Shown: positions 42,964 to 54,396, counted from the first letter of the stretch. The stretch: DNA of 64,000 nucleotides from Actinomycetota bacterium (GCA_030447305.1 JAUJPC010000002.1:384927-448926), one strand, 5' to 3'. Numbers and translations: made by a program. Notes: generated by a model not told the origin, from the letters alone.

Positions 42964-45042
42964 ATGGATCCTGAAGAGATTGAGAACCGTGAATTCGACG
43001 TATCGATGCGGGGTTATGCGCGCCACGAGGTAGAGGCCTTCCGCGAGGAGGTTGCTCAGGAGATAAAGATCCTTCGCAAGCAGCTCACCAAGGCTACTTC
43101 GGATCTGTCACATGCCAACTCGGAGCTGAAGCGCACGCGGGCACAGCTGGCCGATACCAATGCTCAACTGACCGAGGAGCGATCCGGCAAGGCGCCCGAG
43201 CACGAAGGGAAGCAAGAAATTCCGCCGCCTGAGGACCGGGCTGCGGTGTTCAAGATGGTGGGGCAGGAGACCGAGCGCATCCTGCTGGCTGCCGAGCAGG
43301 CCGCCGAGCAGATTCACGATCGCGCAGTGAAGGAATCCGCCGAGATGATCACCGATGCCCGCCTGCAGGTTCAGCGCTCGATGGAAGAGCTGGAGGCGGC
43401 CCGCCGCGCTGCCGAGGAGGATTTCCGGGCGATCAGCGACACCCGCAGCATGGTCGCATCCCAGCTAGAGGACATCCGCCGGCGCCTGGAGGAGACCATT
43501 GGCCGGTTAAGGGTGCCGGTGGAGCTGCCGGGATCCAAGCCGATGCGTTCTCGCGGGCCGCAGGGTGGGTCCGAGCGCTCGATGTCGCAGGCTCCGCTGA
43601 ACCTCGTCAAGGAAGCCGAGATCCACGCTCAACAGCGGCAGCAGAGGGAGGTTGAAGCGGCCAAAGTGCTGGCGGCCCGGCAGACCGCCCATCTGGCCCA
43701 AGCCGAGAGGCGTGAAAGCGAGCTGAAGGTCGTTCAGGCGGAAGCGGAGCAGAGAGCCCAGGCGCACGCCGAGCGAGAGGCTCGTGAACGGGAGGCCCGC
43801 GAAGCCGCGCTCGCGCGCAAAGCGCAGGAAGCGCGCGCGGCTGCGGCTGCGGCAGATGCCGAGCGCCTCAAGTCGGCACGGGAAGCGGAAGGTCTCAGAG
43901 AAGCGCAGGAGGCCGAACGGGCCGCCCGGCTGGCGGCTGAGAGGGCCGCCATGGCAGAAGCCGAGCAGGCAGCCAAGGCGGAGAGGGTCGCCAAGGCAGA
44001 GGCCGAGCAGGCGGCGAAGGCAGAGGCGGAGAGGGCCGCCAAGGCGGAGGCCGAGCAGGCGGCGAAGGCAGAGGCGGAGAGGGCCGCCAAGGCAGAAGCC
44101 GAGCAGGCAGCCAAGGCGGAGAGGGTCGCCAAGGCAGAGGCCGAGCAGGCGGCGAAGGCAGAAGCCGAGAGGGCAGCCAAGGCGGAGGCCGAGAAGACGC
44201 CCCCGCCCCCCAAGGCAGTGGAGGAACGGCCGAAATCAACCGGGGACGATGCATCCAGTAGAAAGGCGGCGTCCGTTGATCACGGGTCGTCGCTTGATGA
44301 GCTGTTGGAAGAGATCCGCCGCAAACGGGAAGAGGAACGCAAGCGCCCTGCTGTGGACCAGCAGACGGCCACGGATGATGTCGCTCAGGAAATCTTCCGC
44401 CGCAACGAGGTCCTCGGGGACCTTCCTGCCCAAACCGCCCGGCGGCTGAAGCGGCTGCTGCAGGAGGATCACAATGATCTGCTCGATCGTCTAAGGACCC
44501 AGCGAGGGAAGGGTCCCCTGGGGGACAACCTCGCTCCTGTTAGCGAACAGCTCGGACGGTTCGTGGCGGGACTGAACGAAGCACTGGGCAGAGCGTTTGC
44601 AGAGGGGCACAAGGCCGGCGGAGCCGTAGGTTCGGTAGACGCATCACGAGCCGTGACAAGACTGGTCAGCCGCCAGGTTCTGAACCCCCTGCGGGCCGAG
44701 GTCTCTAAAGCCGTAGAGACAGGGCTGGAGGCGGAGGATTCGCCGTCTGCTCTGTCGGAGCGGGCAAACGACGTATTTCGGGTCTGGAAGGGCGTGCGAA
44801 CCCAGCTGTTGGGCGAAGGGATCTCCTACGCCGCTTACAACCAGGGCCTGTTGGAGGCACTGGGCTCTCGTCCGGGGGCCAGGAAGGTATGGGTTCTTGC
44901 CACCGATGAGCACGAATGTCCCAACGACATCTGCAAGCGCAACGCCTCCGCAGGCGAGGTTGAGCTCAAGTCGTCGTTCCCAAGTGGGCATCTGGCTCCA
45001 CCCGCTCACGGGGGCTGCACCTGCACTCTGAAGGGCTCCTGA
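42964..45042 (+). CDS. DivIVA domain-containing coiled-coil protein with internal tandem repeats
   Basis: N-terminal DivIVA-like motif (ENREFDVSMRGYARHEV); long coiled coil; AEAEQAAKAEAERAAK repeats. Confidence 0.7.
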   Translation: MDPEEIENREFDVSMRGYARHEVEAFREEVAQEIKILRKQLTKATSDLSHANSELKRTRAQLADTNAQLTEERSGKAPEHEGKQEIPPPEDRAAVFKMVGQETERILLAAEQAAEQIHDRAVKESAEMITDARLQVQRSMEELEAARRAAEEDFRAISDTRSMVASQLEDIRRRLEETIGRLRVPVELPGSKPMRSRGPQGGSERSMSQAPLNLVKEAEIHAQQRQQREVEAAKVLAARQTAHLAQAERRESELKVVQAEAEQRAQAHAEREAREREAREAALARKAQEARAAAAAADAERLKSAREAEGLREAQEAERAARLAAERAAMAEAEQAAKAERVAKAEAEQAAKAEAERAAKAEAEQAAKAEAERAAKAEAEQAAKAERVAKAEAEQAAKAEAERAAKAEAEKTPPPPKAVEERPKSTGDDASSRKAASVDHGSSLDELLEEIRRKREEERKRPAVDQQTATDDVAQEIFRRNEVLGDLPAQTARRLKRLLQEDHNDLLDRLRTQRGKGPLGDNLAPVSEQLGRFVAGLNEALGRAFAEGHKAGGAVGSVDASRAVTRLVSRQVLNPLRAEVSKAVETGLEAEDSPSALSERANDVFRVWKGVRTQLLGEGISYAAYNQGLLEALGSRPGARKVWVLATDEHECPNDICKRNASAGEVELKSSFPSGHLAPPAHGGCTCTLKGS
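43951..44196 (+). repeat. in-frame tandem repeat, 24/48 nt units with a higher-order duplication of about 144 nt
   Basis: Repeated gccgagcaggcggcgaaggcagaggcggagagggccgccaaggc blocks. Confidence 0.8.
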
Positions 45043-45103: not shown

Positions 45104-47947
45104 ATGGTAACCAAGATGCCCGCCTCTCCTAACTCCCGGAGGGTCCGCACAAGCTTCCTGGTCCTTTTCTTCTTTGCGATCATCTCGATCTCGGCGGCTG
45201 TCGGCCTGTACACCGACCTTCTGTGGTTTCGCGAGGTCGGCTTCCAGACGGTCTTCTGGAAAGTGCTCTCTTCGAGGGTGATCCTCGTCGGGGCATTCGG
45301 CCTCCTCTTTTTCATCTTGTGCCTGGTGAACCTGCTGGTCGTAGGCCGAACTGCGCCGGCCTACCGGATTCCCTCCGCTGACCAGGAGGACCCGTTCGAG
45401 AGGTTCCGGGAGGCATTCATCCCGTTTTCGCGCTGGATTCCAATTGGTGTCAGCGCTTTCCTCGCCTTGCTGTTCTCGTTGCGGCTCGCTCCTGCGTGGG
45501 ATCGCTTCGTCCTGGCCATGAACGCAGTGCCCTTCGATGCGGTGGATCCGATTTTCGGAAAGGACCTCAGCTTCTTCATGTTCCGGCTCCCCGTGTACCA
45601 GTTGATTTACGGCTGGCTCTTCTCGGCCGTGGTTGTGGTGACCCTGCTGGTGACGTCGGCCTACTACCTCGTCGGGGCAATTCGTCCCCAGGCGGCAATC
45701 GACAAGGTGGCGCCCCAGGTGAAGGTGCATCTTTCGGTGTTGATCGGAATTGCAGCGCTGCTGAGGGCGTGGGGATACCGGCTCAACCAGTACGAGCTGC
45801 TCTACTCCGAGCGCGGCACAGTCATAGGGGCCTCATACACCGACATCAACGCCGAGCTGCCCGCCCTCAAGCTCCTCGTGGCCATCTCGATCATCAGCGC
45901 AGTTCTGTTTCTGGTGAACATTCGGTTCCGCGGCTGGACGCTGCCTCTCATCGGGGTCGGGCTGTGGCTGTTGACCTCCGTCCTGGCCGCCGGCCTGTTC
46001 CCCTTCATCATCCAGCGATTCCAGGTCGAGCCCGCCGAGCTTCAGAAGGAGCGGGAGTTCATAGAGAGAAACATCGTCAACACGAGGAAAGCCTTCGGAC
46101 TGGATGCGATGCAGGTTCAAGAGTTCCCCATCGAACCCGGCTTGAGTGCCCAAAGCGTGCAGGAGAACCAAACAACACTGAACAACGTCCGGCTGTGGGA
46201 CCCGCACACGCTGATGAGCGCCTTCCGGCAGCTCCAGGAGATTCGAACCTACTACAAGTTCCAGGACGTGGACGTCGACCGTTACCAGCTGGGTCCCCAG
46301 AGGCGACAGTTGATGCTGGCCCTGCGGGAGCTCGACGTCACCAGCCTGCAGAGCCGCTCATGGCTGAACGATCACCTGGTGTACACGCATGGCTACGGAG
46401 CGGTCGCCAGCCCCACCAATGAGATCACCGGCGAAGGAGCGCCTCAGCTGCTGATACGGGACATCCCGCCGGTGTCGGACATGGACGAGCTCAAGATCGA
46501 CCGACCCGGAATCTACTTCGGCGAGGGCCCGAGCACCTATTCCATAGTCAACACCGAACAGCGGGAGCTGGACTACACCGCACCGGAAGGCAACGAGACA
46601 ACCGTCTATGACGGCAGAGCCGGTGTCCCGCTTCAAAACCTGTTTCGGCGGCTGACCTTTGCCTGGAGGTTCCGCGACGTGAACCTGGCCATCAGTGGTC
46701 TGATCGACGGTGAGTCAAAGGTCATCTTCAACCGGGGGATCCGGGAACGCGTCAGCAAGGCGGCGCCCTTCCTGGAGCTGGACGGAGATCCCTACGCAGT
46801 CCTCGCCGGAGGCCGGATCGTTTGGATTCTGGATGCCTACACGATGTCCAACATGTACCCGTACTCGCAGAGCGTCGACCTGTCGACCCGAACCCGCATT
46901 CGAGGCGGCGCCAACGATGGGGATCCCAGCATCGTGGCAACTGGGAACTACGTCCGCAACTCGGTGAAGGTAACGGTGGATGCCTACGACGGCACCATGA
47001 GGTTTTACGTATGGGACGAGAACGACCCGCTGATTCGAGCCTGGCAAAGGGCCTTCCCCTCTCTGTTGGTCGACCAGTCGCAGATGCCGGCAGAGGTACG
47101 AAGCCATGTGCGGTATCCGGAGGACATGTTTCGGATCCAGAGCCACGTTTACCAGCGCTACCACATGACCGATCCAACGGACTTCTATCAGCGGGAGGAT
47201 GAGTGGGTTATTCCCGCCAACCCGATGAGGGGGGTAAGCTCCGCCGTCGCGACGACGCAGGAGCTCGAGCCGTACTACGTCCTCATGCGCCTGCCGGACA
47301 CCGAACGGGACGAGTACGTGATGATCCTTCCGATGAACCCCAGGAACCGGCCGAATATGGTGTCACTCCTGGCGGCCAAGTCGGATCAGGAGGAATTCGG
47401 AAAGCTCGTGGACTTCCGCTTCCCAAAGGGCGTCCAGACCGGCGGGGTGGGGCAAATCCATTCCCGCATCAACGCCAATGAGGAGATCTCGCGTACCATC
47501 ACCCTGCTCGAGCAAAGCGGATCCGATGTCATCCTGGGCAACCTGCTCGTGATCCCGGTCGGCAAGTCGATCCTCTACTCGCAGCCCCTTTTCCTCCAGG
47601 CCAACAACAATGCCATTCCGGAGCTCAAGTACGTGATCCTGGCCAACTCCGATCAGGTTAAGATGGCGCCCACGTTGGACCAGGCGTTGGACGCGCTCCT
47701 CAGCAACGCTCCAACCGTCATCACGTCGCCGGGGACGCCGGCACCTCCTCCCGGGCCGCCGGCACCGGCTCCGCCTCCGCCGGCGGACGCGCCGGAGCCG
47801 GGAGCACAAACTCAGGACGAGCTGCTGAGGGAGGCATCCGACCGCCTGAATGCCGCGGAACAAGCGGCCCGCAACGGCGATTGGGCGGCCTACGGACGGG
47901 AGCTGCAGGCGGCGAGGGACGCACTTTCGAGGGCCCGGGGATCCTGA
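45104..47947 (+). CDS. UPF0182 family large membrane protein
   Basis: Multi-TM N-terminus plus large extracytoplasmic domain; Pro-rich C-terminal tail. Confidence 0.8.
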   Translation: MVTKMPASPNSRRVRTSFLVLFFFAIISISAAVGLYTDLLWFREVGFQTVFWKVLSSRVILVGAFGLLFFILCLVNLLVVGRTAPAYRIPSADQEDPFERFREAFIPFSRWIPIGVSAFLALLFSLRLAPAWDRFVLAMNAVPFDAVDPIFGKDLSFFMFRLPVYQLIYGWLFSAVVVVTLLVTSAYYLVGAIRPQAAIDKVAPQVKVHLSVLIGIAALLRAWGYRLNQYELLYSERGTVIGASYTDINAELPALKLLVAISIISAVLFLVNIRFRGWTLPLIGVGLWLLTSVLAAGLFPFIIQRFQVEPAELQKEREFIERNIVNTRKAFGLDAMQVQEFPIEPGLSAQSVQENQTTLNNVRLWDPHTLMSAFRQLQEIRTYYKFQDVDVDRYQLGPQRRQLMLALRELDVTSLQSRSWLNDHLVYTHGYGAVASPTNEITGEGAPQLLIRDIPPVSDMDELKIDRPGIYFGEGPSTYSIVNTEQRELDYTAPEGNETTVYDGRAGVPLQNLFRRLTFAWRFRDVNLAISGLIDGESKVIFNRGIRERVSKAAPFLELDGDPYAVLAGGRIVWILDAYTMSNMYPYSQSVDLSTRTRIRGGANDGDPSIVATGNYVRNSVKVTVDAYDGTMRFYVWDENDPLIRAWQRAFPSLLVDQSQMPAEVRSHVRYPEDMFRIQSHVYQRYHMTDPTDFYQREDEWVIPANPMRGVSSAVATTQELEPYYVLMRLPDTERDEYVMILPMNPRNRPNMVSLLAAKSDQEEFGKLVDFRFPKGVQTGGVGQIHSRINANEEISRTITLLEQSGSDVILGNLLVIPVGKSILYSQPLFLQANNNAIPELKYVILANSDQVKMAPTLDQALDALLSNAPTVITSPGTPAPPPGPPAPAPPPPADAPEPGAQTQDELLREASDRLNAAEQAARNGDWAAYGRELQAARDALSRARGS

Positions 47948-47991
47948 GCGGAGGCGTTGGGTGCCCCGGTGAGCTTGTGCTAACCTAATTG

Positions 47992-48068
<77 letters not shown>

Positions 48069-48091
48069 CTGAAATGGCCTGATCTAGGCGT

Positions 48092-48130
48092 AAAAGGCGG
48101 CTTTCCGGGTCGGAAGGTCGCCTTTTGTAT
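48092..48130. terminator. bidirectional hairpin terminator downstream of tRNA
   Basis: AAAAGGCG...CGCCTTTT 8 bp outer stem with nested inner stem, followed by TTTTGTATT. Confidence 0.6.
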
Positions 48131-48503
48131 TCGGCGAAACTGCCGCATGTAGGCCATCCCATTCGATCGCGTGTTCGAGCGACTAAAATCATGCTGCCCT
48201 TAATGGCGGTCGAGTGTTGAGTCCGCTTGTCTGCGTTGGCATCTCGGGCCCGATAGCGAGCCCCTCCAAGCTTGACTGGGGTGTCTTCATCGACAAGATC
48301 CGGTGATGTTCTCGTGGAGCGAGCGGAAGCCTACCCTGGCTCAAGGTCACCTACGAGGTAGCTTTGTGGCGCAGGCATCAGCGAGCTTCCACACCACCAG
48401 GGGGTTGCGGGCTGTAAGTGGTCCGGAACCTTGGCAAGCTGGGGCCGTTCGTCGAGGGTGCCACCAGCATCGTCGACGAAGATTGATATTTATGGGATTG
48501 GCC

Positions 48504-48527
48504 TTTGACACAGCTATTTATGTCAAA
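48504..48527. promoter_or_regulatory. inverted repeat TTTGACA-N10-TGTCAAA in an AT-rich patch overlapping the JAB-E1 stop codon
   Basis: Perfect 7 bp arms; possible protein-binding or recombination site. Confidence 0.3.
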
Positions 48528-49893
48528 AGAAGAAATCCCCCTGGCCCCATTCAGCGCAAGCGGGACAGTCCGGTCGCCGAGGCGGCAGATCACATCGTTC
48601 CAGGACCCCCCGGCGTCCATCGTATTGCCACCATGCCGGCCCACGACCACCTCTAGCGAAACCAGTAATGAGATCGAGGGCACAGTTCACTGCTTCTGAA
48701 GCCAGCACCCCATTCATAGATGCGACCTGGGGCTCTCCTACGGCGTCCGGATTCAGGTCGTATCCCGGCGGACACTCTACCGCTTCCCTAGCGAGCACGG
48801 CGTCGGAGAGAAGCGGGCCACATTGAAGACAAGATGATTCGGGGAGAACCATAACCACTTGGCCGGACGCCGTGAGGAGCCTTCCATCTCTCCCAGTCCT
48901 AATGTTCATTCCGACGTCGATCAGCGGCAGATGATATCGGCGGCAGAAAACATTGATCTGCTGCCGTGCACCGAAAGTGTCTACTCAGGCAATGACTACA
49001 TCCATCCTCTTCAGAGCTTCACGGACGCTCGAGGATGGAAACCGCTCTCGTATTTCTATGATCGAAATGTCCGGGTTGATTGATGTTGCTAGACCAGCCA
49101 TCACCTCAGTTTTGAAGCTGCCCACGTTGGCTCTGGTCGCCCCAACCATTCTTCCCAACTGGACGTCCTCCACTCGCTGGTCGTCAACACCGATCAGCGT
49201 CCCGACGCCTTGATGGGCAAGCTGCTGGAATACATGGGAACCCCCTCCCGAAAGCCCGACCACCCCGATGGTGGCGTCGGCGAGTTGGGCGTCGCTCGGA
49301 GATCCTAGGGCTCTGGTCTGACGATCCAGCTGAAAGCGGGATGGTCGTTTTGAAGACGGCCTGGGCTGCCACCTTGGCGTGCCGACCACTTTCAGACCAG
49401 CAAGATCTCCTATCGATTGCCCGTCTTTCCAAAACCTCCCGGCCGCGGTGCCTTGGCCGAGCACGACCGATCCATTCAGGCGGCCGGAAAGAATCCGGCT
49501 AATCGGGGGAAAGAGTTTGCCCGCATTAGCGAAGTCGGGGGCGGACAGACGCGGTCGCTGGGTATCTCCGTGAGAATGGACAAGGACCAGACCGAAACCA
49601 CCTTGCATGGCAGCTTCGATCGCCCGAGAATTGAATGTCGCAGGCCAAGCTAACTGATGATCTTTCCGGCTTCGATCGGCTTGGTCGGGCGGCACGGGCA
49701 TCCATCTGCCGGCAATGAGGATGAAGTCCTCCGCTGATCTAGCAACTCGGCAAAGAAGAAAACCGCTCTGTTCGCCGATCGAAAAGTCCTCAACGTGGCT
49801 CCGAACGACCTTAAAAAGGGCAGCATTTATCCTGAGCTCGATTTTTGCAATGGCTGGGTCGTGAGCACGGAGTGAGGTTGAGAACTCGATCAA
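48523..49893 (-). CDS. JAB/MPN (JAMM) metalloprotease fused to E1-like (ThiF/MoeB) adenylyltransferase; single in-frame TGA (Sec candidate or nonsense)
   Basis: Track ORFs 48985..49893 and 48523..48909 share one frame, split by TGA at 48985-87; JAMM motif VLVHSHGDTQRPRLSAPD with upstream Glu; E1 Gly-rich loop GVVGLSGGGSHV, Arg-finger region, CLQC and CPAC; TTG start overlaps upstream stop (TTGA). Confidence 0.55.
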
Positions 49894-50258
49894 ATGTCCT
49901 CCCTAAACCGATTGAGCCACAACTGGACCGCCCTGGTCGGGGTCAAAGGCTCCTGAGGCCAGGCAAAGGCAAAGCTAAACTGCCGCCACGATTCCCCCAG
50001 AATCAGCTGGTCGCTGGAGCTGCGGGGCGGTTGCCCACTCGGCGTGAGGGCTGCCACATCGATCCAGAAATCTGGACGGGCATGAGGCCAGTTCACGAAA
50101 CGGACCATCGCTCTAACCGGAGAACCCCAGGGGGGAAGGAGGTGGACCTTTGGGAGAAGAACATGAAGCGGCTGGTCAGGACCAGGAGTCACGTCTAGAG
50201 CCTCCGAAAAGGAATTAGAGAGGTCTTCGACTATGGCCCTGCGCTCGACATCTTCCAT
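49890..50258 (-). CDS. hypothetical protein between Ubl and JAB-E1 genes (possible E2-like or adaptor; no Cys)
   Basis: 122 aa ORF; ATG overlaps Ubl stop (TGATG), stop overlaps JAB-E1 start; no cysteine present. Confidence 0.5.
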   Translation of the reverse strand: MEDVERRAIVEDLSNSFSEALDVTPGPDQPLHVLLPKVHLLPPWGSPVRAMVRFVNWPHARPDFWIDVAALTPSGQPPRSSSDQLILGESWRQFSFAFAWPQEPLTPTRAVQLWLNRFREDI

Positions 50259-50527
50259 CAGCTTACGCCCCCGCCGCCGATGGCCTCGAAATGCATTCCA
50301 GACTTGACGTCAATCGCTTCGTGATCCGCTAGGACCATTCGCCCATTTCCGTGAACCAAATACAAGACATCGGTTGAGTCCACGCCCAACTCGGCCTTTA
50401 GCCGGTCTACGGTGGTCTCCCCCGCACTTACGGTTTTTTGCTCGTCCCCGAGCTTTACGTGCGCCAGCTTTGCCTTTTCGTCGGTCTTCGTTTCAACCAC
50501 CTCCCGAGTACATCGTTGATTGCACAA
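50258..50527 (-). CDS. ubiquitin-like beta-grasp protein (ThiS/MoaD-like) with C-terminal GGGG-VS
   Basis: Small beta-grasp-like sequence ending HFEAIGGGGVS; first gene of a coupled three-gene unit; exact start uncertain (TTG 50527 or GTG 50500). Confidence 0.5.
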   Translation of the reverse strand: MCNQRCTREVVETKTDEKAKLAHVKLGDEQKTVSAGETTVDRLKAELGVDSTDVLYLVHGNGRMVLADHEAIDVKSGMHFEAIGGGGVS

Positions 50528-50552
50528 CCACTTGTTTACGCTGAAGGGTTAC

Positions 50553-51047
50553 CTAGAGCCGATTAAGCAATCTGGCGTCCTTCAGGGCGATGAAGATGGC
50601 TTCGCGACTCACTTGATACCGGGTGGCCAAAGCCCCAGGGGTTCGGTACTTAGGAAGGTCCCGCCTGAGCCAAAGACTGGGAATCAGCAAGGCGCCGGCG
50701 AAGATGTTTGCTTGAGCCTCCGCCAACTGACTCTCGTTATGGGCGTGACCAAGGTGGTAATGGCCGAGCTCGTGAGCGAGACTGAAACGCTGCCGGACCT
50801 GGGCTTGGTTGGAGGCGAGCTCTATTTGCCTTTCGTTGGGTCGAAGCAGGGCGTCCACTCCCCTAGGCAAATCAGCCCTCACAACGATTAACCCGGCACT
50901 CTGCGCAAGCTCCTCGACCGGCACTGGTGGTTGGGTCACACCCGCCTTCTTGAGGACATTTGCAGCAACCCTTCGACAATGAGCCGCTCTAACGTCCTCT
51001 TTGGGCTCGAAAAACTCTACGGCTCCATCGTCTTCAAACTCCTCCAT
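50553..51047 (-). CDS. ImmA/IrrE family zinc metallopeptidase (CapP-like regulator candidate)
   Basis: HEXXH in SLAHELGHYHLGH with COG2856-like N-terminal region. Confidence 0.65.
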   Translation of the reverse strand: MEEFEDDGAVEFFEPKEDVRAAHCRRVAANVLKKAGVTQPPVPVEELAQSAGLIVVRADLPRGVDALLRPNERQIELASNQAQVRQRFSLAHELGHYHLGHAHNESQLAEAQANIFAGALLIPSLWLRRDLPKYRTPGALATRYQVSREAIFIALKDARLLNRL

Positions 51048-51204
51048 GCTTCAACCACCTCCTCGACGAAATCCTCGGCAATGGGGCGTGCGCGAGCCGG
51101 ATCTCGCTCTGATCCACCAAGGGCGGATGCCCGGTCCTCCGCCGACAGACCGCTCGTCCTTCCCAGGACCTGACTGCCTGTGCCGGGGAACGTGACAAAG
51201 CCTG

Positions 51205-51450
51205 TTACTGTTTGGACAAGCAATGTTGCCAAGAGCTAGGTCGAAGACCAACGGTTCTAAGGAGTCTTGCAAGGCCAGCCGCAGATAGGCTGCGCGGATC
51301 AGCCTTCCCGGCGAGAAGCTTTCGAGCCTCCGATTCGTGCCCTATAACCTCATAAACAAGCTCGTCCTCGTTCCACCCAGCTGATTTACCGGCTTTGAGA
51401 ATCATGTCTGCGAGAAGGCTTGAGCTTGCCGTGGCCGCAGCCTTGACCAC
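51205..51450 (-). CDS. XRE-like helix-turn-helix protein (CapH-like repressor candidate)
   Basis: ELVYEVIGHESEARKLLAGKADPRSLSAAGLARLLRTVGL resembles HTH_3 helices; 5' end overlaps transposase remnant, boundary uncertain. Confidence 0.35.
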   Translation of the reverse strand: MVKAAATASSSLLADMILKAGKSAGWNEDELVYEVIGHESEARKLLAGKADPRSLSAAGLARLLRTVGLRPSSWQHCLSKQ

Positions 51451-51873
51451 CCTTTGTCGAAGTTCCTCGGGAACCTCTACCGCAGAGGCAGAATCGGCCT
51501 CGTACTCCGGCTCCGTAATTCCTGACGTGTAAGCCTGAGACCTTGTGGACCCCGTTGGGCGAGATCTTGATCGATCCCCATTTGCGCCGGGCCAGCTCGT
51601 CGCTGATGCGTTGCGGACCCACGGTGGGAAACGCCAGGGCGAACGCGATCACCCGCTGCTCAATCATCGGTGAGGTGGCGTTGGGCATCCGGGGCCGCCG
51701 GCGCTCCCGGGGGCCAAGATCTCGATGCCGAAACGCTCGACCTGGCCCTTCCAGCGGTAGTAGGTCGAGGGATGGATCCCCATTGCCCGGCAGGCGGCTC
51801 TTACATTGCCCATCTCGTGAGCTAGTCCAAAGACTCGTACTCTGAACCGGAACAGGGCATCATCTTGAGTCAA
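51386..51873 (-). mobile_element. IS481-family transposase N-terminal remnant (frameshifted, no DDE core)
   Basis: Two overlapping ORFs with HTH region (AACRAMGIHPSTYYRWK) and GPQRISDELARR segment; no integrase core follows. Confidence 0.55.
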
Positions 51874-52877: not shown

Positions 52878-53321
52878 TTGGCATGGTGGAGGGGCAAAGG
52901 GCCATCGCCGCGACATCAACCTGGGTACTCGCGCGGAGTGACGAGCGACCAGCGCTACACGGGGCGGGCAGAGCACGAAGCTCTCGCCGCCAAGCAGGCG
53001 CAACTCGGGCGGTCGGAAGCGACCTGCGCCGCCCTCATCCCCATCACTAAGTCGGAGGCTTGGTGGGGGCTCACCCAGGACGAGCGGCGGGAAATCTTCG
53101 AGGAGCGCTCGCACCATATAGCCATCGGTTTGGAGTACCTGCCCGCAGTCGCTCGCCGTCTTCATCACGGCCGCGACCTTGGCGAAGCATTCGACTTCCT
53201 TACCTGGTTCGAGTACCCGGAGGAGAGCCGTGCTGCGTTCGAGGAGCTCGTCGCGCGTCTTCGATTGACGCCTGAGTGGGAGTTCGTGGAGCGGGAGATC
53301 GACATCCGTCTCACTCGGTAG
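52878..53321 (+). CDS. chlorite dismutase/HemQ family-like protein, possibly truncated
   Basis: C-terminal-domain-like pattern (IPITKSEAWWGLTQDERREIFEE...DFLTWFEYPEE); N-terminal half not found in frame. Confidence 0.4.
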   Translation: MAWWRGKGPSPRHQPGYSRGVTSDQRYTGRAEHEALAAKQAQLGRSEATCAALIPITKSEAWWGLTQDERREIFEERSHHIAIGLEYLPAVARRLHHGRDLGEAFDFLTWFEYPEESRAAFEELVARLRLTPEWEFVEREIDIRLTR

Positions 53322-53649: not shown

Positions 53650-54396
53650 GTGAGGCAGCTCAAAACCGCACTCGGGAACGGAGCAGGAGCGGTCAACTCC
53701 GACGAGAACGTAGGCGGGGTTCTCAAACTGCTTGGCGGGGATCTACGTAATTCGGGACTGGCCTCAGCTTCCGACATTCCGCAGTTCGGGGTGGGCGCAG
53801 TCTCGGCACGGGAACTGGTGCAAGCCCTGAGGCTCGCTATACCTGGAGCCGAAGTCCAGATTCCAGTCATACGTCAAGGCAGTGGCGTACAGCGTCTCCT
53901 CCTGGTGTCGATCCTGCTTCGGCTTGCTCAATCCGGCGAGAACCCCTTGATTGGGCGCTTTGAAGAGCCGGAGGAAGCTCTAGAGCCTCTCAGGCAAACC
54001 CAGATGGCCAAGACGTTGGCCCAAATTGTGGGGCGTGGCGGACAAGTATTTGTCGTGACGCATTCCCCAGAGGTGGCTCGCGCCTTCTCAATCGATGACT
54101 TCCTCTTGCTTGAGGGGCGCTCGGCCGGGGGAGGTGCATCGGCTTCCCTGCCTGCCGGGCTTCGAGCCTGTAGCGAGGAACCACCAAGAGGGGTTTGCTC
54201 TGCCGGAGGAACTTGGCTACGTCCACCGCTGGCGGGAAATTGCCTTTCTCTTGGGGGACTAGCTCATCAGGTCATAGGTCTCCGAAGTAACCCGACGCAA
54301 CCAATGCTTCCGGCGAGTGGAGGTTCGGTGTGGCTGACCAGGACAATTTCGACAGCGCTGTGGAGCGGTTCCGCGAGGCTCTTCATGAGTACGTGA
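53650..54396 (+). pseudogene. C-terminal fragment of an ABC/AAA-type ATPase (OLD/RecF-like), N-terminal Walker A region missing
   Basis: Walker B/D-loop-like FEEPEEALEP and H-loop VFVVTHSPE; no upstream P-loop in any frame. Confidence 0.5.

What the first reader, a model, noticed from the sequence alone, without database searches (positions are those of the whole stretch)
48523..51450. Coupled Ubl / small Cys-free protein / JAB-E1 operon with ImmA-like and HTH genes in a tRNA-adjacent island
On the minus strand, three genes are chained by overlapping stop and start codons (TGATG and TTGA): a ThiS/MoaD-like protein ending GGGG-VS, a 122 aa protein, and a JAMM peptidase fused to an E1-like adenylyltransferase. 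Immediately upstream are an ImmA/IrrE metallopeptidase and an XRE-like HTH gene, which resembles the CapH/CapP regulator pair of CBASS defence operons. The set sits in a seemingly lower-GC, decayed island next to tRNA-Met. The domains match ubiquitin-like conjugation systems (Bil/Bub/Cap2-Cap3-type) or Ubl sulfur-carrier systems with JAMM processing (CysO/QbsE-type); the fused JAB-E1 order and Cys-free middle gene do not match a family I can name.
Basis: partly seen in the sequence, partly recalled or inferred. Interest (0 to 1): 0.85.

Follow-up and report, generated by a model that had tools for sequence, protein, structure and literature searches.

The report
Broken Bub-type bacterial ubiquitin-like conjugation operon
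This is a decayed copy of a rare, stripped-down relative of the recently described bacterial "Bub" ubiquitination-like systems: a ubiquitin-like protein, a serine-type E2 and a peptidase-E1 fusion, sitting next to a tRNA gene with its E1 gene cut by a stop codon.

Summary
On the minus strand a Ubl gene (50258-50527), a Cys-free 122-aa gene (49890-50258) and a JAB-E1 gene (from 49893) overlap by 1 and 4 bases. An ImmA/IrrE (CapP-like) peptidase gene lies upstream and tRNA-Met downstream. Two details fail. The JAB-E1 frame is cut by an in-frame TGA (48985-48987) that replaces an invariant Cys codon; a sibling metagenome allele has TGT. The "XRE-like HTH" gene matches no HTH model; it is a 5'-truncated, frameshifted remnant of an unannotated 192-202-aa gene that in relatives follows an ECF sigma gene.

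It differs from published Type I Bub in four ways: Ubl and E2 are separate genes, no DUF6527/BubE or other conserved fourth gene is present, the E2 lacks the His/Asp partners, and an M78 peptidase is adjacent in 12 of 14 loci. I call it a new variant of a known kind, with the window copy decayed. Biological role is unproven.

The parts
50258..50527 (-). Ubl gene (BubA-like, single beta-grasp). It is 89 aa from the TTG at 50527 or 80 aa from the GTG at 50500. The C-terminus is ...HFEAIGGGG-VS.
49890..50258 (-). E2-like gene (BubB/Prok-E2_E-related UBC fold, 122 aa, no Cys). The predicted nucleophile is Ser95 (codon 49974-49976).
48523..49893 (-). JAB/JAMM peptidase-E1 adenylyltransferase fusion (BubCD-like), a pseudogene in this window. 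The JAB domain is at about 49474-49821 and the ThiF/E1 domain at about 48526-49326. The crossover-loop Tyr codon is 48760-48762.
   Evidence: Pfam ThiF and Prok-JAB. The best PDB sequence match is Citrobacter BubCD 9ea5, E 1.9e-20, collinear over both domains. In 118 aligned sequences the JAMM E/HxH/SxxD residues, the GxGxxG motif, the Arg, the Asp, four Zn-site Cys and the crossover-loop Tyr are all invariant.
48985..48987 (-). In-frame TGA stop that replaces an invariant Cys codon (motif A-C-V-D-T) and truncates the E1 at 302 aa.
   Evidence: Sequence. The sibling allele L004 has TGT. Cys is invariant in 118 sequences and is also present in BubCD (CCVDT). Only the window and L005 have a split E1 among 30 loci.
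49374..49378 (-). Site of a 6-base deletion (two codons, Cys-Glu) in the JAB-E1 linker, relative to the intact allele L004.
   Evidence: Alignment of the window with L004 and L005. The homologue consensus has the longer form.
50553..51047 (-). CapP-like ImmA/IrrE (M78) metallopeptidase gene, 164 aa, short form.
   Evidence: PF06114 at 1.4e-18 and PADLOC capP at 5.4e-22. It is 61% identical to the L011 orthologue. An M78 gene is adjacent in 12 of 14 related loci.
51017..51537 (-). Remnant of a 192-202-aa gene of unknown family (possibly an anti-sigma-like partner). The first 12-20 codons are missing and a 1-base deletion at about 51224 shifts the frame.
   Evidence: tblastn with the L011 202-aa protein matches in two frames, combined E 1e-21. 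Alignment A4. L004 carries the extra A. No HTH or capH hit.
51386..51873 (-). IS481-like transposase N-terminal remnants abutting the truncated operon. They probably caused the loss of the upstream ECF sigma gene and promoter.
   Evidence: HTH_28, HTH_29, HTH_23, HTH_Tnp_1 and a weak HTH_32 hit. Translation shows stops and frame changes. No sigma remnant was found in the window.
47992..48068 (+). tRNA-Met (CAT) bordering the island, 455 bases downstream of the E1 stop.
   Evidence: ARAGORN and Rfam. The same UPF0182 / tRNA-Met / Bub-like arrangement occurs in L009 with the operon inverted.

Best explanation
The locus is a degenerate copy of a three-gene bacterial ubiquitination-like conjugation cassette. 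The cassette is homologous to Type I Bub (6E.1) operons and is carried on a small mobile or defence-type island at tRNA-Met.

How the intact system most likely works (seen intact in allele L004 and about 30 related loci), by homology to Citrobacter Bub:
1. A stress- or DNA-damage-responsive M78 (CapP-like) peptidase module switches the operon on. In most relatives it would do so by cleaving a CapH-like HTH repressor. In this subclade it presumably acts on a 192-202-aa partner of an ECF sigma factor.
2. The N-terminal JAMM domain of the JAB-E1 protein trims the conserved 2-3-residue tail (VS, or GVS/KAS) from the Ubl, exposing a C-terminal Gly.
3. The E1 domain adenylates that Gly and takes the Ubl onto the invariant crossover-loop Tyr as an oxyester.
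4. The Ubl passes to the invariant Ser95 of the Cys-free UBC-fold E2.
5. The E2 transfers it to a lysine on an unknown target.
There is no DUF6527/BubE protease, so the JAMM domain is the only candidate deconjugase.

In this window the system is dead. An IS481-like element removed the sigma gene and the 5' end of the next gene. That gene also carries a frameshift. The E1 carries a 6-base deletion and a nonsense codon at an invariant Cys.

Shown here: gene order, homology, conserved catalytic residues and the lesions. Inferred: every biochemical step, the regulatory logic and a defence or stress role.

For: Catalytic residues are conserved. The crossover-loop Tyr is invariant in 118 E1 sequences, while the window's neighbouring Cys is not conserved. 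Ser95 is invariant in the E2 family and sits in the column that holds the S of FSWH in BubAB-type proteins and Cys in other relatives. The JAMM and adenylation motifs are intact. The Ubl tail is conserved.

The Ubl-E2-JAB/E1 order is present in every one of 30 loci. No other conserved neighbour exists except the M78, HTH, sigma and 192-aa regulator genes. capH and capP are the best PADLOC hits in relatives.

Mobile or defence context: Shedu SduA_C, HNH, HipA and MmeI in L001; HerA/NurA in L008; integrase and AbiEi in L017; tRNA-Met in the window and L009.

Lesions. The published biochemistry (Tyr and Ser oxyesters, JAB cleavage after Gly) is in Ye et al., bioRxiv 10.1101/2024.11.21.623953.
Against: No biochemistry exists for this variant. 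Its E2 lacks the His (+2) and Asp that accompany the catalytic Ser in Type I BubB, so the Ser may be less reactive, or the E2 may be an adaptor. BubE, said to be present in all published Bub operons, is absent. Sequence identity to the Bub proteins is low: 12% for the E2, and an E-value of only 1e-20 for the E1. Published Bub operons have not been shown to protect against phage (PMC13373217), and no relatives were found on viral contigs, so the defence role is only contextual. The sigma / 192-aa / M78 switch is pure inference. Whether the window allele is truly non-functional rests on reading TGA as a stop.
Confidence: 0.72

Rival explanations
1. It is a Ubl sulfur-carrier system of the CysO/Mec+ or QbsE/QbsD type. 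The E1 would adenylate and thiocarboxylate the ThiS/MoaD-like protein after JAMM trimming, for cofactor, cysteine or siderophore synthesis.
Against: A UBC-fold E2 with an invariant Ser in the catalytic column is always present between the Ubl and the E1. No rhodanese domain was detected (only Prok-JAB and ThiF match), and no Cys is conserved in the crossover loop. No cysM, moaE, thiG or siderophore genes recur in 18 non-redundant loci; the only recurrent neighbours are regulators. The best matches for all three proteins are Bub components.
Confidence: 0.04
2. It is a conjugation system in which the Cys-free 122-aa protein is a catalytically inert UEV/RWD-like adaptor. The E1, through its Tyr or the acyl-adenylate, would transfer the Ubl directly to targets that the adaptor recruits.
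For: The E2 family lacks the His/Asp (Type I) or Lys/His (Type II) partners reported to accompany the BubB Ser. UEV domains (Tsg101, Mms2) are among its fold matches.
Against: Ser95 is invariant across the family and occupies exactly the column that is catalytic Ser or Cys in relatives. The family has its own near-invariant His32, Arg61 and Arg92 that could assist.
Confidence: 0.12
3. The TGA at 48985-48987 encodes selenocysteine (or is read through), so the window's JAB-E1 is a functional full-length protein.
For: The TGA sits exactly at an invariant Cys codon, the classic Sec/Cys pattern. A hairpin lies 20-50 nt downstream (fold z = -2.1).
Against: No Rfam SECIS match at E up to 1. The same downstream sequence accompanies TGT in allele L004. 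From my own knowledge of the family, that Cys corresponds to the structural Cys of the ThiF/MoeB 'DCTDN' strand and is not a redox residue. The same allele carries two further derived lesions, a frameshift in the regulator gene and a 6-base deletion, and it sits in an operon already truncated by an IS. No tRNA-Sec lies in the window.
Confidence: 0.02
4. It is a Type II CBASS-style Cap2/Cap3 or a Bil-type module.
Against: No CD-NTase or effector gene is present in any locus. The E1 is fused to JAB, not to an E2. It has no IAD-AAD-CYS architecture and no catalytic Cys, unlike BilD (for the Bil definition). The Bub proteins score far better.
Confidence: 0.02

Closest known systems
Type I Bub (bacterial ubiquitination-like; formerly '6E.1' or DUF6527) operons: BubAB + BubCD + BubE (Ye, Gong, Chambers & Corbett, bioRxiv 10.1101/2024.11.21.623953; PDB 9ea4, 9ea5, 9eav)
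   Same: The JAB/JAMM-E1 fusion has the same length (about 458 aa) and domain order, and BubCD is its best PDB sequence match. The crossover loop has an invariant Tyr and no conserved Cys. The UBC-fold E2 has Ser in the catalytic column. The Ubl is of the multi-ubiquitin type, with a Gly that must be exposed by cleavage. The operon is associated with M78/CapP-type regulators, sits next to a tRNA gene, and lies in mobile or defence contexts.
   Different: Ubl and E2 are separate genes overlapping by one base, not a BubAB fusion. The Ubl has one beta-grasp domain and a conserved 2-3-residue tail. No BubE/DUF6527 or any other conserved fourth gene is present. The E2 lacks the S-x-H His and the Asp. 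The E1 retains a four-Cys zinc site, and BubCD has no Cys at the first CxxC in the aligned stretch. An M78 peptidase is adjacent in about 86% of loci, against 31% with CapH+CapP in published Bub operons. Named source records are Actinomycetota, Acidimicrobiales, Acidobacteriaceae and Gemmatimonadota MAGs.
Type II Bub (6E.2): BubA + BubBD (E2-E1 fusion) + BubE
   Different: In Type II the E2 is fused to the E1, there is no JAB domain, and BubE is present. Here the E2 is free, JAB is fused to the E1, and BubE is absent.
Pfam Prok-E2_E (PF14462) and Multi_ubiq (PF14452) families, known to me from the comparative-genomics work of Aravind and colleagues
   Same: The window's E2 and Ubl are distant homologues of these families (hhalign 98% for the E2; structural matches for the Ubl).
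   Different: Neither protein reaches any Pfam, NCBIfam or PADLOC model even at E = 10 (Pfam) or E = 1 (NCBIfam, PADLOC), so standard annotation leaves them as hypothetical proteins.
CapH+CapP regulators of CBASS and other defence operons
   Same: The M78 peptidase gene's best PADLOC hit is capP. In related loci a capH-like HTH gene is paired with it and is usually divergent from the operon.
   Different: In the window's subclade the gene before the peptidase is not an HTH protein. It is a helical 192-202-aa protein, translationally coupled to an upstream ECF sigma factor gene, and all genes run in the same direction as the operon.
Bil (bacterial ISG15-like) and Type II CBASS Cap2/Cap3
   Same: Bacterial E1/E2/JAB conjugation machinery in defence islands.
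   Different: These systems use Cys thioester chemistry, have different fusions (Cap2 is E2-E1; BilD is IAD-AAD-CYS), carry a separate JAB gene, and in CBASS a cyclase and effector.

Membership tests
Type I Bub (6E.1) | JAB/JAMM peptidase fused N-terminally to an E1 adenylation domain (BubCD) | tested here: met
   Prok-JAB plus ThiF in one frame. Collinear phmmer match to Citrobacter BubCD, E 1.9e-20. JAMM and adenylation residues are invariant in 118 sequences. In the window itself the frame is broken by a TGA.
Type I Bub (6E.1) | E1 crossover loop with an invariant Tyr and no catalytic Cys | tested here: met
   The Tyr of 'RPPGYD' is invariant. The window's Cys four residues upstream is Arg in most homologues.
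Type I Bub (6E.1) | UBC-fold E2 (BubB) with an invariant Ser at the catalytic position | tested here: met
Type I Bub (6E.1) | Catalytic Ser accompanied by an invariant His (+2) and Asp | tested here: not met
   Position +2 is A, N, S, Q or G. The Asp-equivalent column is D, E, Q, L or R.
Type I Bub (6E.1) | Ubl encoded as a fusion to the E2 (BubAB pre-protein) | tested here: not met
   Ubl and E2 are separate ORFs with a stop codon between them, overlapping by one base in the window. They are also separate ORFs in the related loci.
Type I and II Bub | bubE (DUF6527/PF20137 serine protease) in the operon | tested here: not met
   No PF20137 hit in the window ORFs or in neighbours of the related loci examined. 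Clustering finds no conserved gene downstream of the E1 in 18 non-redundant loci. Caveat: no BubE positive control was run.
Type I and II Bub | Ubl of the multi-ubiquitin beta-grasp type ending in a Gly used for adenylation | tested here: inconclusive
   Beta-grasp model whose best matches are Bub Ubls. The conserved IGGG[G/K]-[V/A]S tail implies processing. The cleavage site and adenylation were not testable.
Type I and II Bub | ATP-dependent Ubl-target conjugation through oxyester intermediates | not testable with these tools
   This needs biochemistry with the intact allele.
CapH+CapP regulator pair | M78/ImmA-like peptidase (CapP) | tested here: met
   PADLOC capP at 5.4e-22 and PF06114 at 1.4e-18.
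CapH+CapP regulator pair | Adjacent XRE-type HTH repressor (CapH) | tested here: not met
   The window ORF, whether repaired or not, has no HTH or capH hit. It is homologous to a 192-202-aa protein with no family match. Related loci L007, L009, L010 and L012 do have capH.
Ubl sulfur-carrier systems (CysO/Mec+, QbsE/QbsD, MoaD/ThiS) | Biosynthetic partners (CysM, MoaE, ThiG and so on), a sulfur-transfer domain, and no E2 | tested here: not met
   An E2 is always present. No biosynthetic neighbours recur. Only Prok-JAB and ThiF domains were detected, so no rhodanese domain.

The most novel reading that the evidence does not exclude
The family represents a third, minimal type of Bub pathway. It has a separate Ubl, a Ser-only E2 without the His/Asp helpers, and a JAB-E1 that both matures and deconjugates, with no BubE. 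It is almost always tied to an M78 peptidase. In one subclade the peptidase would control an ECF sigma factor plus a helical anti-sigma-like partner instead of a CapH repressor. That would be a protease-released sigma switch driving a ubiquitin-like conjugation operon.
Probability: 0.4. Interest if true: 0.55.

Novelty: new variant of a known kind. Interest (0 to 1): 0.4.

Why it matters
Bub pathways are the only known ubiquitin-like cascades that run on Tyr and Ser oxyesters, and their biological role is still unknown. The published catalogue of 544 operons was collected through the DUF6527 (BubE) gene, so BubE-less relatives like this one were invisible to it. A three-gene version shows that BubE and the Ubl-E2 fusion are dispensable. 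It also shows that the E2's His/Asp helpers are not universal, which narrows what is essential for oxyester chemistry. The version comes from soil-type Actinomycetota, Acidobacteriaceae and Gemmatimonadota MAGs and offers a smaller system to reconstitute. Its near-obligate pairing with an M78 peptidase, including a possible sigma/anti-sigma variant, may help find the trigger. The window copy is a pseudogene and is useful mainly as a record of decay: IS truncation came first, then a frameshift and a nonsense codon, with both alleles present in sibling samples.

Tried and rejected
- I searched for an att-type direct repeat of the tRNA-Met 3' end to define the island borders. Only short chance repeats turned up. 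No integrase lies in the window, although relatives L010 and L017 have one.
- An Rfam scan of the window at gathering thresholds, and of the operon at E up to 1, found only the tRNA. There was no SECIS, riboswitch or other RNA.
- I considered the selenocysteine reading of the TGA and rejected it.
- A scan of viral contigs for relatives of the E2 found none. A scan of about 100,000 species-representative genomes found only two.
- I looked for a remnant of the ECF sigma gene in the window by tblastn and found none.
- I tried to name the source organism by exact cluster look-up. The sources carry no name or accession.
- I looked for a positive control for DUF6527 next to a BubAB-type fusion (L014), but the contig ends too soon.
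- Searches for the 192-202-aa protein in PDB sequences and NCBIfam returned only designed helical repeats and noise.
Full report
**1. What is in the sequence**

- A Ubl-like ORF lies at 50258-50527. It is 89 aa from a TTG start; gene callers on identical contigs use the GTG at 50500, giving 80 aa. It ends ...HFEAIGGGGVS.
- A 122-aa ORF without any Cys lies at 49890-50258.
- An ORF starting with TTG at 49893 carries Prok-JAB (E 4.9e-5) and ThiF (E 4.6e-18) matches.
- The junctions are TGATG (1-base overlap) and TTGA (4-base overlap), as reported.
- Upstream, 50553-51047 encodes an ImmA/IrrE M78 peptidase (PF06114 at 1.4e-18; best PADLOC hit capP at 5.4e-22).
- tRNA-Met lies at 47992-48068.
- GC is 57-59% at 48-52 kb against 61-67% on either side.

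Two parts of the observation do not hold.

First, the JAB-E1 reading frame is interrupted by an in-frame TGA at 48985-48987. The 302-aa ORF ends there and the same frame continues through 25 codons into the 128-aa ORF 48523-48909.

**2. The window copy is a decayed allele**

Two short metagenome contigs from sibling runs cover this locus. L005 (SRR24765285) is 100% identical to the window. L004 (SRR24765286) is 99.7% identical but differs at informative sites.
- L004 has TGT where the window has TGA, giving an intact 458-aa JAB-E1.
- L004 has six extra bases (Cys-Glu) in the JAB-E1 linker.
- L004 has one extra A at about 51224.

In an alignment of 118 JAB-E1 sequences (the L004 query plus 117 homologues) the Cys at the TGA position, in the motif A-C-V-D-T, is invariant. 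It is also present in Citrobacter BubCD as CCVDT. The homologue consensus has the longer linker. The window therefore carries the derived states.

With the extra A, the "HTH" ORF continues to 51017 and overlaps the peptidase start. The repaired protein is 43% identical (E 6e-30) to a 202-aa protein in the same position in L011, an Actinomycetota MAG (GCA_038040395.1). It is 54% identical to a 192-aa protein in L017. Homology in the window starts only at 51537, which corresponds to about residue 13-21 of those proteins. At that point it abuts IS481-like transposase N-terminal remnants at 51386-51873.

In L011 and L017-L019 the 192-202-aa gene is preceded by a translationally coupled ECF sigma factor gene (TIGR02937, 63 bits). 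No trace of that gene is left in the window. The junction with the IS remnant is shared by L004, which starts at window position 51567.

The likely order of events is therefore as follows. An IS insertion removed the sigma gene, the promoter region and the 5' end of the next gene. The window lineage then accumulated a frameshift, a 6-base deletion and a nonsense codon.

Among 30 loci with an E2-like ORF, only the window and L005 have a split E1.

I considered a selenocysteine reading of the TGA. A modest hairpin lies downstream (z = -2.1). However, there is no Rfam SECIS match, the same downstream sequence accompanies TGT in L004, the residue is a structural Cys of the ThiF/MoeB strand (my own knowledge of the family), and the allele carries other lesions. 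I give this reading about 2%.

**3. What the three proteins are**

None of the standard libraries names the Ubl or the 122-aa protein.

The distant profile hits include Ubl-E2 fusion proteins. One of them, P0231, carries Pfam Multi_ubiq plus Prok-E2_E and is followed by a JAB-ThiF gene. hhalign between the two groups gives 98.2% probability, E 5e-14.

In that alignment, and in a MAFFT alignment of the whole superfamily, the invariant Ser95 (WRQFSF) falls in the column of the Ser in the FSWH motif of the fusions. This corresponds to BubB S333/H335 in Ye et al. The same column is Cys (FCWQ) in other relatives. It is therefore the catalytic column. The His at +2 and the Asp of the PDMFW motif are not conserved in this family.

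*JAB-E1.* Its best PDB sequence match is Citrobacter BubCD (E 1.9e-20), collinear from the JAB domain through the adenylation domain. Across 118 sequences the following are invariant:
- the JAMM Glu, the HxH and the SxxD;
- the GxGxxG motif, the adenylation Arg and Asp;
- four zinc-site Cys (CxxC...CxxC);
- one crossover-loop Tyr (RPPGYD).

The Cys four residues before that Tyr in the window is Arg in most homologues. An invariant crossover-loop Tyr with no conserved Cys is the signature reported for BubCD Y370.

**4. Neighbourhood**

In every locus with enough sequence the order Ubl / E2 / JAB-E1 is kept, with tight or overlapping junctions.

I clustered all ORFs within 6 kb of the cassette in 18 non-redundant loci. 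The only recurrent neighbours were:
- M78 peptidases, in short, long and HTH-fused forms;
- capH-like HTH genes;
- the 192-202-aa gene;
- the ECF sigma gene;
- in two loci, the host UPF0182 gene.

Nothing is conserved downstream of the E1, and no DUF6527 (PF20137) hit appears anywhere. I could not run a positive control for that model.

An M78 peptidase is adjacent in 12 of 14 loci with context. In L007, L009, L010 and L012 the regulator pair's best PADLOC hits are capH (E 1e-10 to 1e-13) and capP (E 1e-20 to 1e-32).

Surrounding genes are often defence- or mobile-element-related:
- Shedu SduA_C, HNH, HipA and an MmeI-type enzyme in L001;
- HerA/NurA and an RNase HII-Lon fusion in L008;
- a tyrosine integrase and AbiEi in L017;
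- IS elements in L006 and L009;
- an AAA_15 fragment in the window.

L009, an Actinobacteria MAG, has the same UPF0182 / tRNA-Met / cassette arrangement as the window, but with the operon inverted. This suggests a recurrent insertion site.

The family is rare. It occurs in 2 of about 100,000 species-representative genomes, 16 metagenome loci and no viral contigs. Source names include Actinomycetota, Acidimicrobiales, Acidobacteriaceae and Gemmatimonadota MAGs.

**5. Mechanism**

By homology with the Citrobacter Type I Bub system (Ye et al., bioRxiv 10.1101/2024.11.21.623953), I propose these steps:
1. The JAMM domain removes the short conserved tail from the Ubl and exposes a Gly.
2. The E1 adenylates that Gly and forms a Ubl~Tyr oxyester on its crossover loop.
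3. The Ubl moves to Ser95 of the E2.
4. The E2 transfers it to a lysine on an unknown target.

Because BubE is absent, the JAMM domain is the only candidate for deconjugation.

Expression is probably switched on by the M78 peptidase module. In most relatives this would be cleavage of a CapH-like repressor. In the window's subclade I infer that the peptidase acts on the 192-202-aa partner of the ECF sigma factor, which would be an anti-sigma-like arrangement. Nothing tests this.

All of these steps are inferences from conserved residues and gene order. None is shown for this family. The biological role (anti-phage or stress response) rests only on context. Even the published Bub operons have not been shown to protect against phage (PMC13373217).

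**6. Comparison and membership**

The cassette works like, and is homologous to, Type I Bub. As a member of the family as published it meets three criteria:
- the JAB-E1 fusion;
- the Tyr-type crossover loop;
- the Ser-type UBC E2.

It fails three:
- the Ubl-E2 fusion (stated for all Type I operons);
- BubE (stated for all Bub operons);
- the His/Asp partners of the catalytic Ser.

The published catalogue was built from DUF6527-containing operons, so this type could not have been in it. I therefore class it as a new variant of a known kind, not a plain member and not a new category.

The sulfur-carrier alternative is disfavoured by the ever-present E2, the absence of biosynthetic neighbours and the best matches of all three proteins. 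CBASS and Bil membership are excluded by architecture.

**7. Verdict**

The choice between a conjugation system and a sulfur-carrier system resolves in favour of conjugation.

The unnamed family is Bub, a system described in 2024-2026, and the copy in this window is a pseudogenised relic. What remains of interest is at the family level:
- a minimal, BubE-less, unfused Bub type with a Ser-only E2;
- a near-obligate M78 peptidase partner;
- in one subclade, an ECF sigma plus unknown partner plus peptidase module.

Interest 0.4.

Noticed in passing
window 48985-48987 (-); L004 and L005: Two alleles of the locus coexist in sibling sequencing runs. SRR24765285 has TGA, like the window. SRR24765286 has TGT (Cys), an intact 458-aa JAB-E1 and an unshifted upstream gene.
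   Followed up: yes
L011 4680-6255; L017 5092-6704: In the closest relatives the cassette has six co-directional genes with overlapping junctions: ECF sigma factor, a 192-202-aa helical protein with no known family, a short M78 peptidase, then Ubl, E2 and JAB-E1. This may be a protease-controlled sigma/anti-sigma switch replacing CapH/CapP. I found no description of it in the paper library.
   Followed up: partly
window 51386-51873 (-): Fragmented N-terminus of an IS481-like transposase (HTH_28, HTH_29, HTH_23, HTH_Tnp_1 and weak HTH_32 hits) with internal stops and frame changes. No rve catalytic domain follows. It abuts the truncated operon at about 51540.
   Followed up: partly
window 53650-54396 (+): The ORF's middle section matches only the C-terminal end of AAA_15/AAA_21 ATPases (OLD, AbiEii or Gabija-type). 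It looks like a truncated remnant of another defence-type gene.
   Followed up: no
window 52878-53321 (+): A 147-aa ORF matching only the C-terminal half of the chlorite dismutase family (PF06778, profile positions 85-183 of 189). It is either a fragment or a short form.
   Followed up: no
window 42964-45042 (+): A 692-aa protein with an N-terminal DivIVA domain and a long run of near-perfect AEAEQAAKAE(R) repeats. These repeats create long shadow ORFs on both strands.
   Followed up: no
L009 4516-11787 versus window 45104-51047: An Actinobacteria MAG has the same host flank (UPF0182 gene, then tRNA-Met) followed by a related cassette in the opposite orientation, with capH plus a long capP instead of the sigma-type module. 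This suggests independent insertions at one tRNA-Met hotspot.
   Followed up: partly
proteins P0185, P0191, P0194, P0195, P0201, P0204, P0205, P0215, P0217: In the wider E2 superfamily found with the profile, the catalytic column is Ser in some subfamilies (FSF, FSY, FSWH) and Cys in others (FCWQ, LCWQ, FCWN). Thioester-type and oxyester-type relatives therefore coexist.
   Followed up: partly
L006 10369-12360 (protein P0168): One JAB-E1 homologue is 663 aa, with a C-terminal extension of about 190 residues that has no Pfam match.
   Followed up: no
L008 11899-15381 and 4687-6954: In the Acidobacteriaceae MAG the cassette is followed directly by a HerA-like (DUF87) and NurA pair. A 755-aa Lon_C / RNase HII fusion protein lies upstream. 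No M78 or HTH regulator is evident there.
   Followed up: no
window 48935-48966 (-): A hairpin (GGCAGCAGA...UCUGCCGCC) lies 20-50 nt downstream of the in-frame TGA (fold z = -2.1). It has no Rfam match and is present unchanged in the TGT allele.
   Followed up: yes
window 50258-50275 (-): The four Gly codons at the Ubl C-terminus (GGC GGC GGG GGC) lie 7-18 nt upstream of the E2 start codon and could also serve as its Shine-Dalgarno sequence. This may add to the conservation of the GGGG-VS tail at the DNA level.
   Followed up: no
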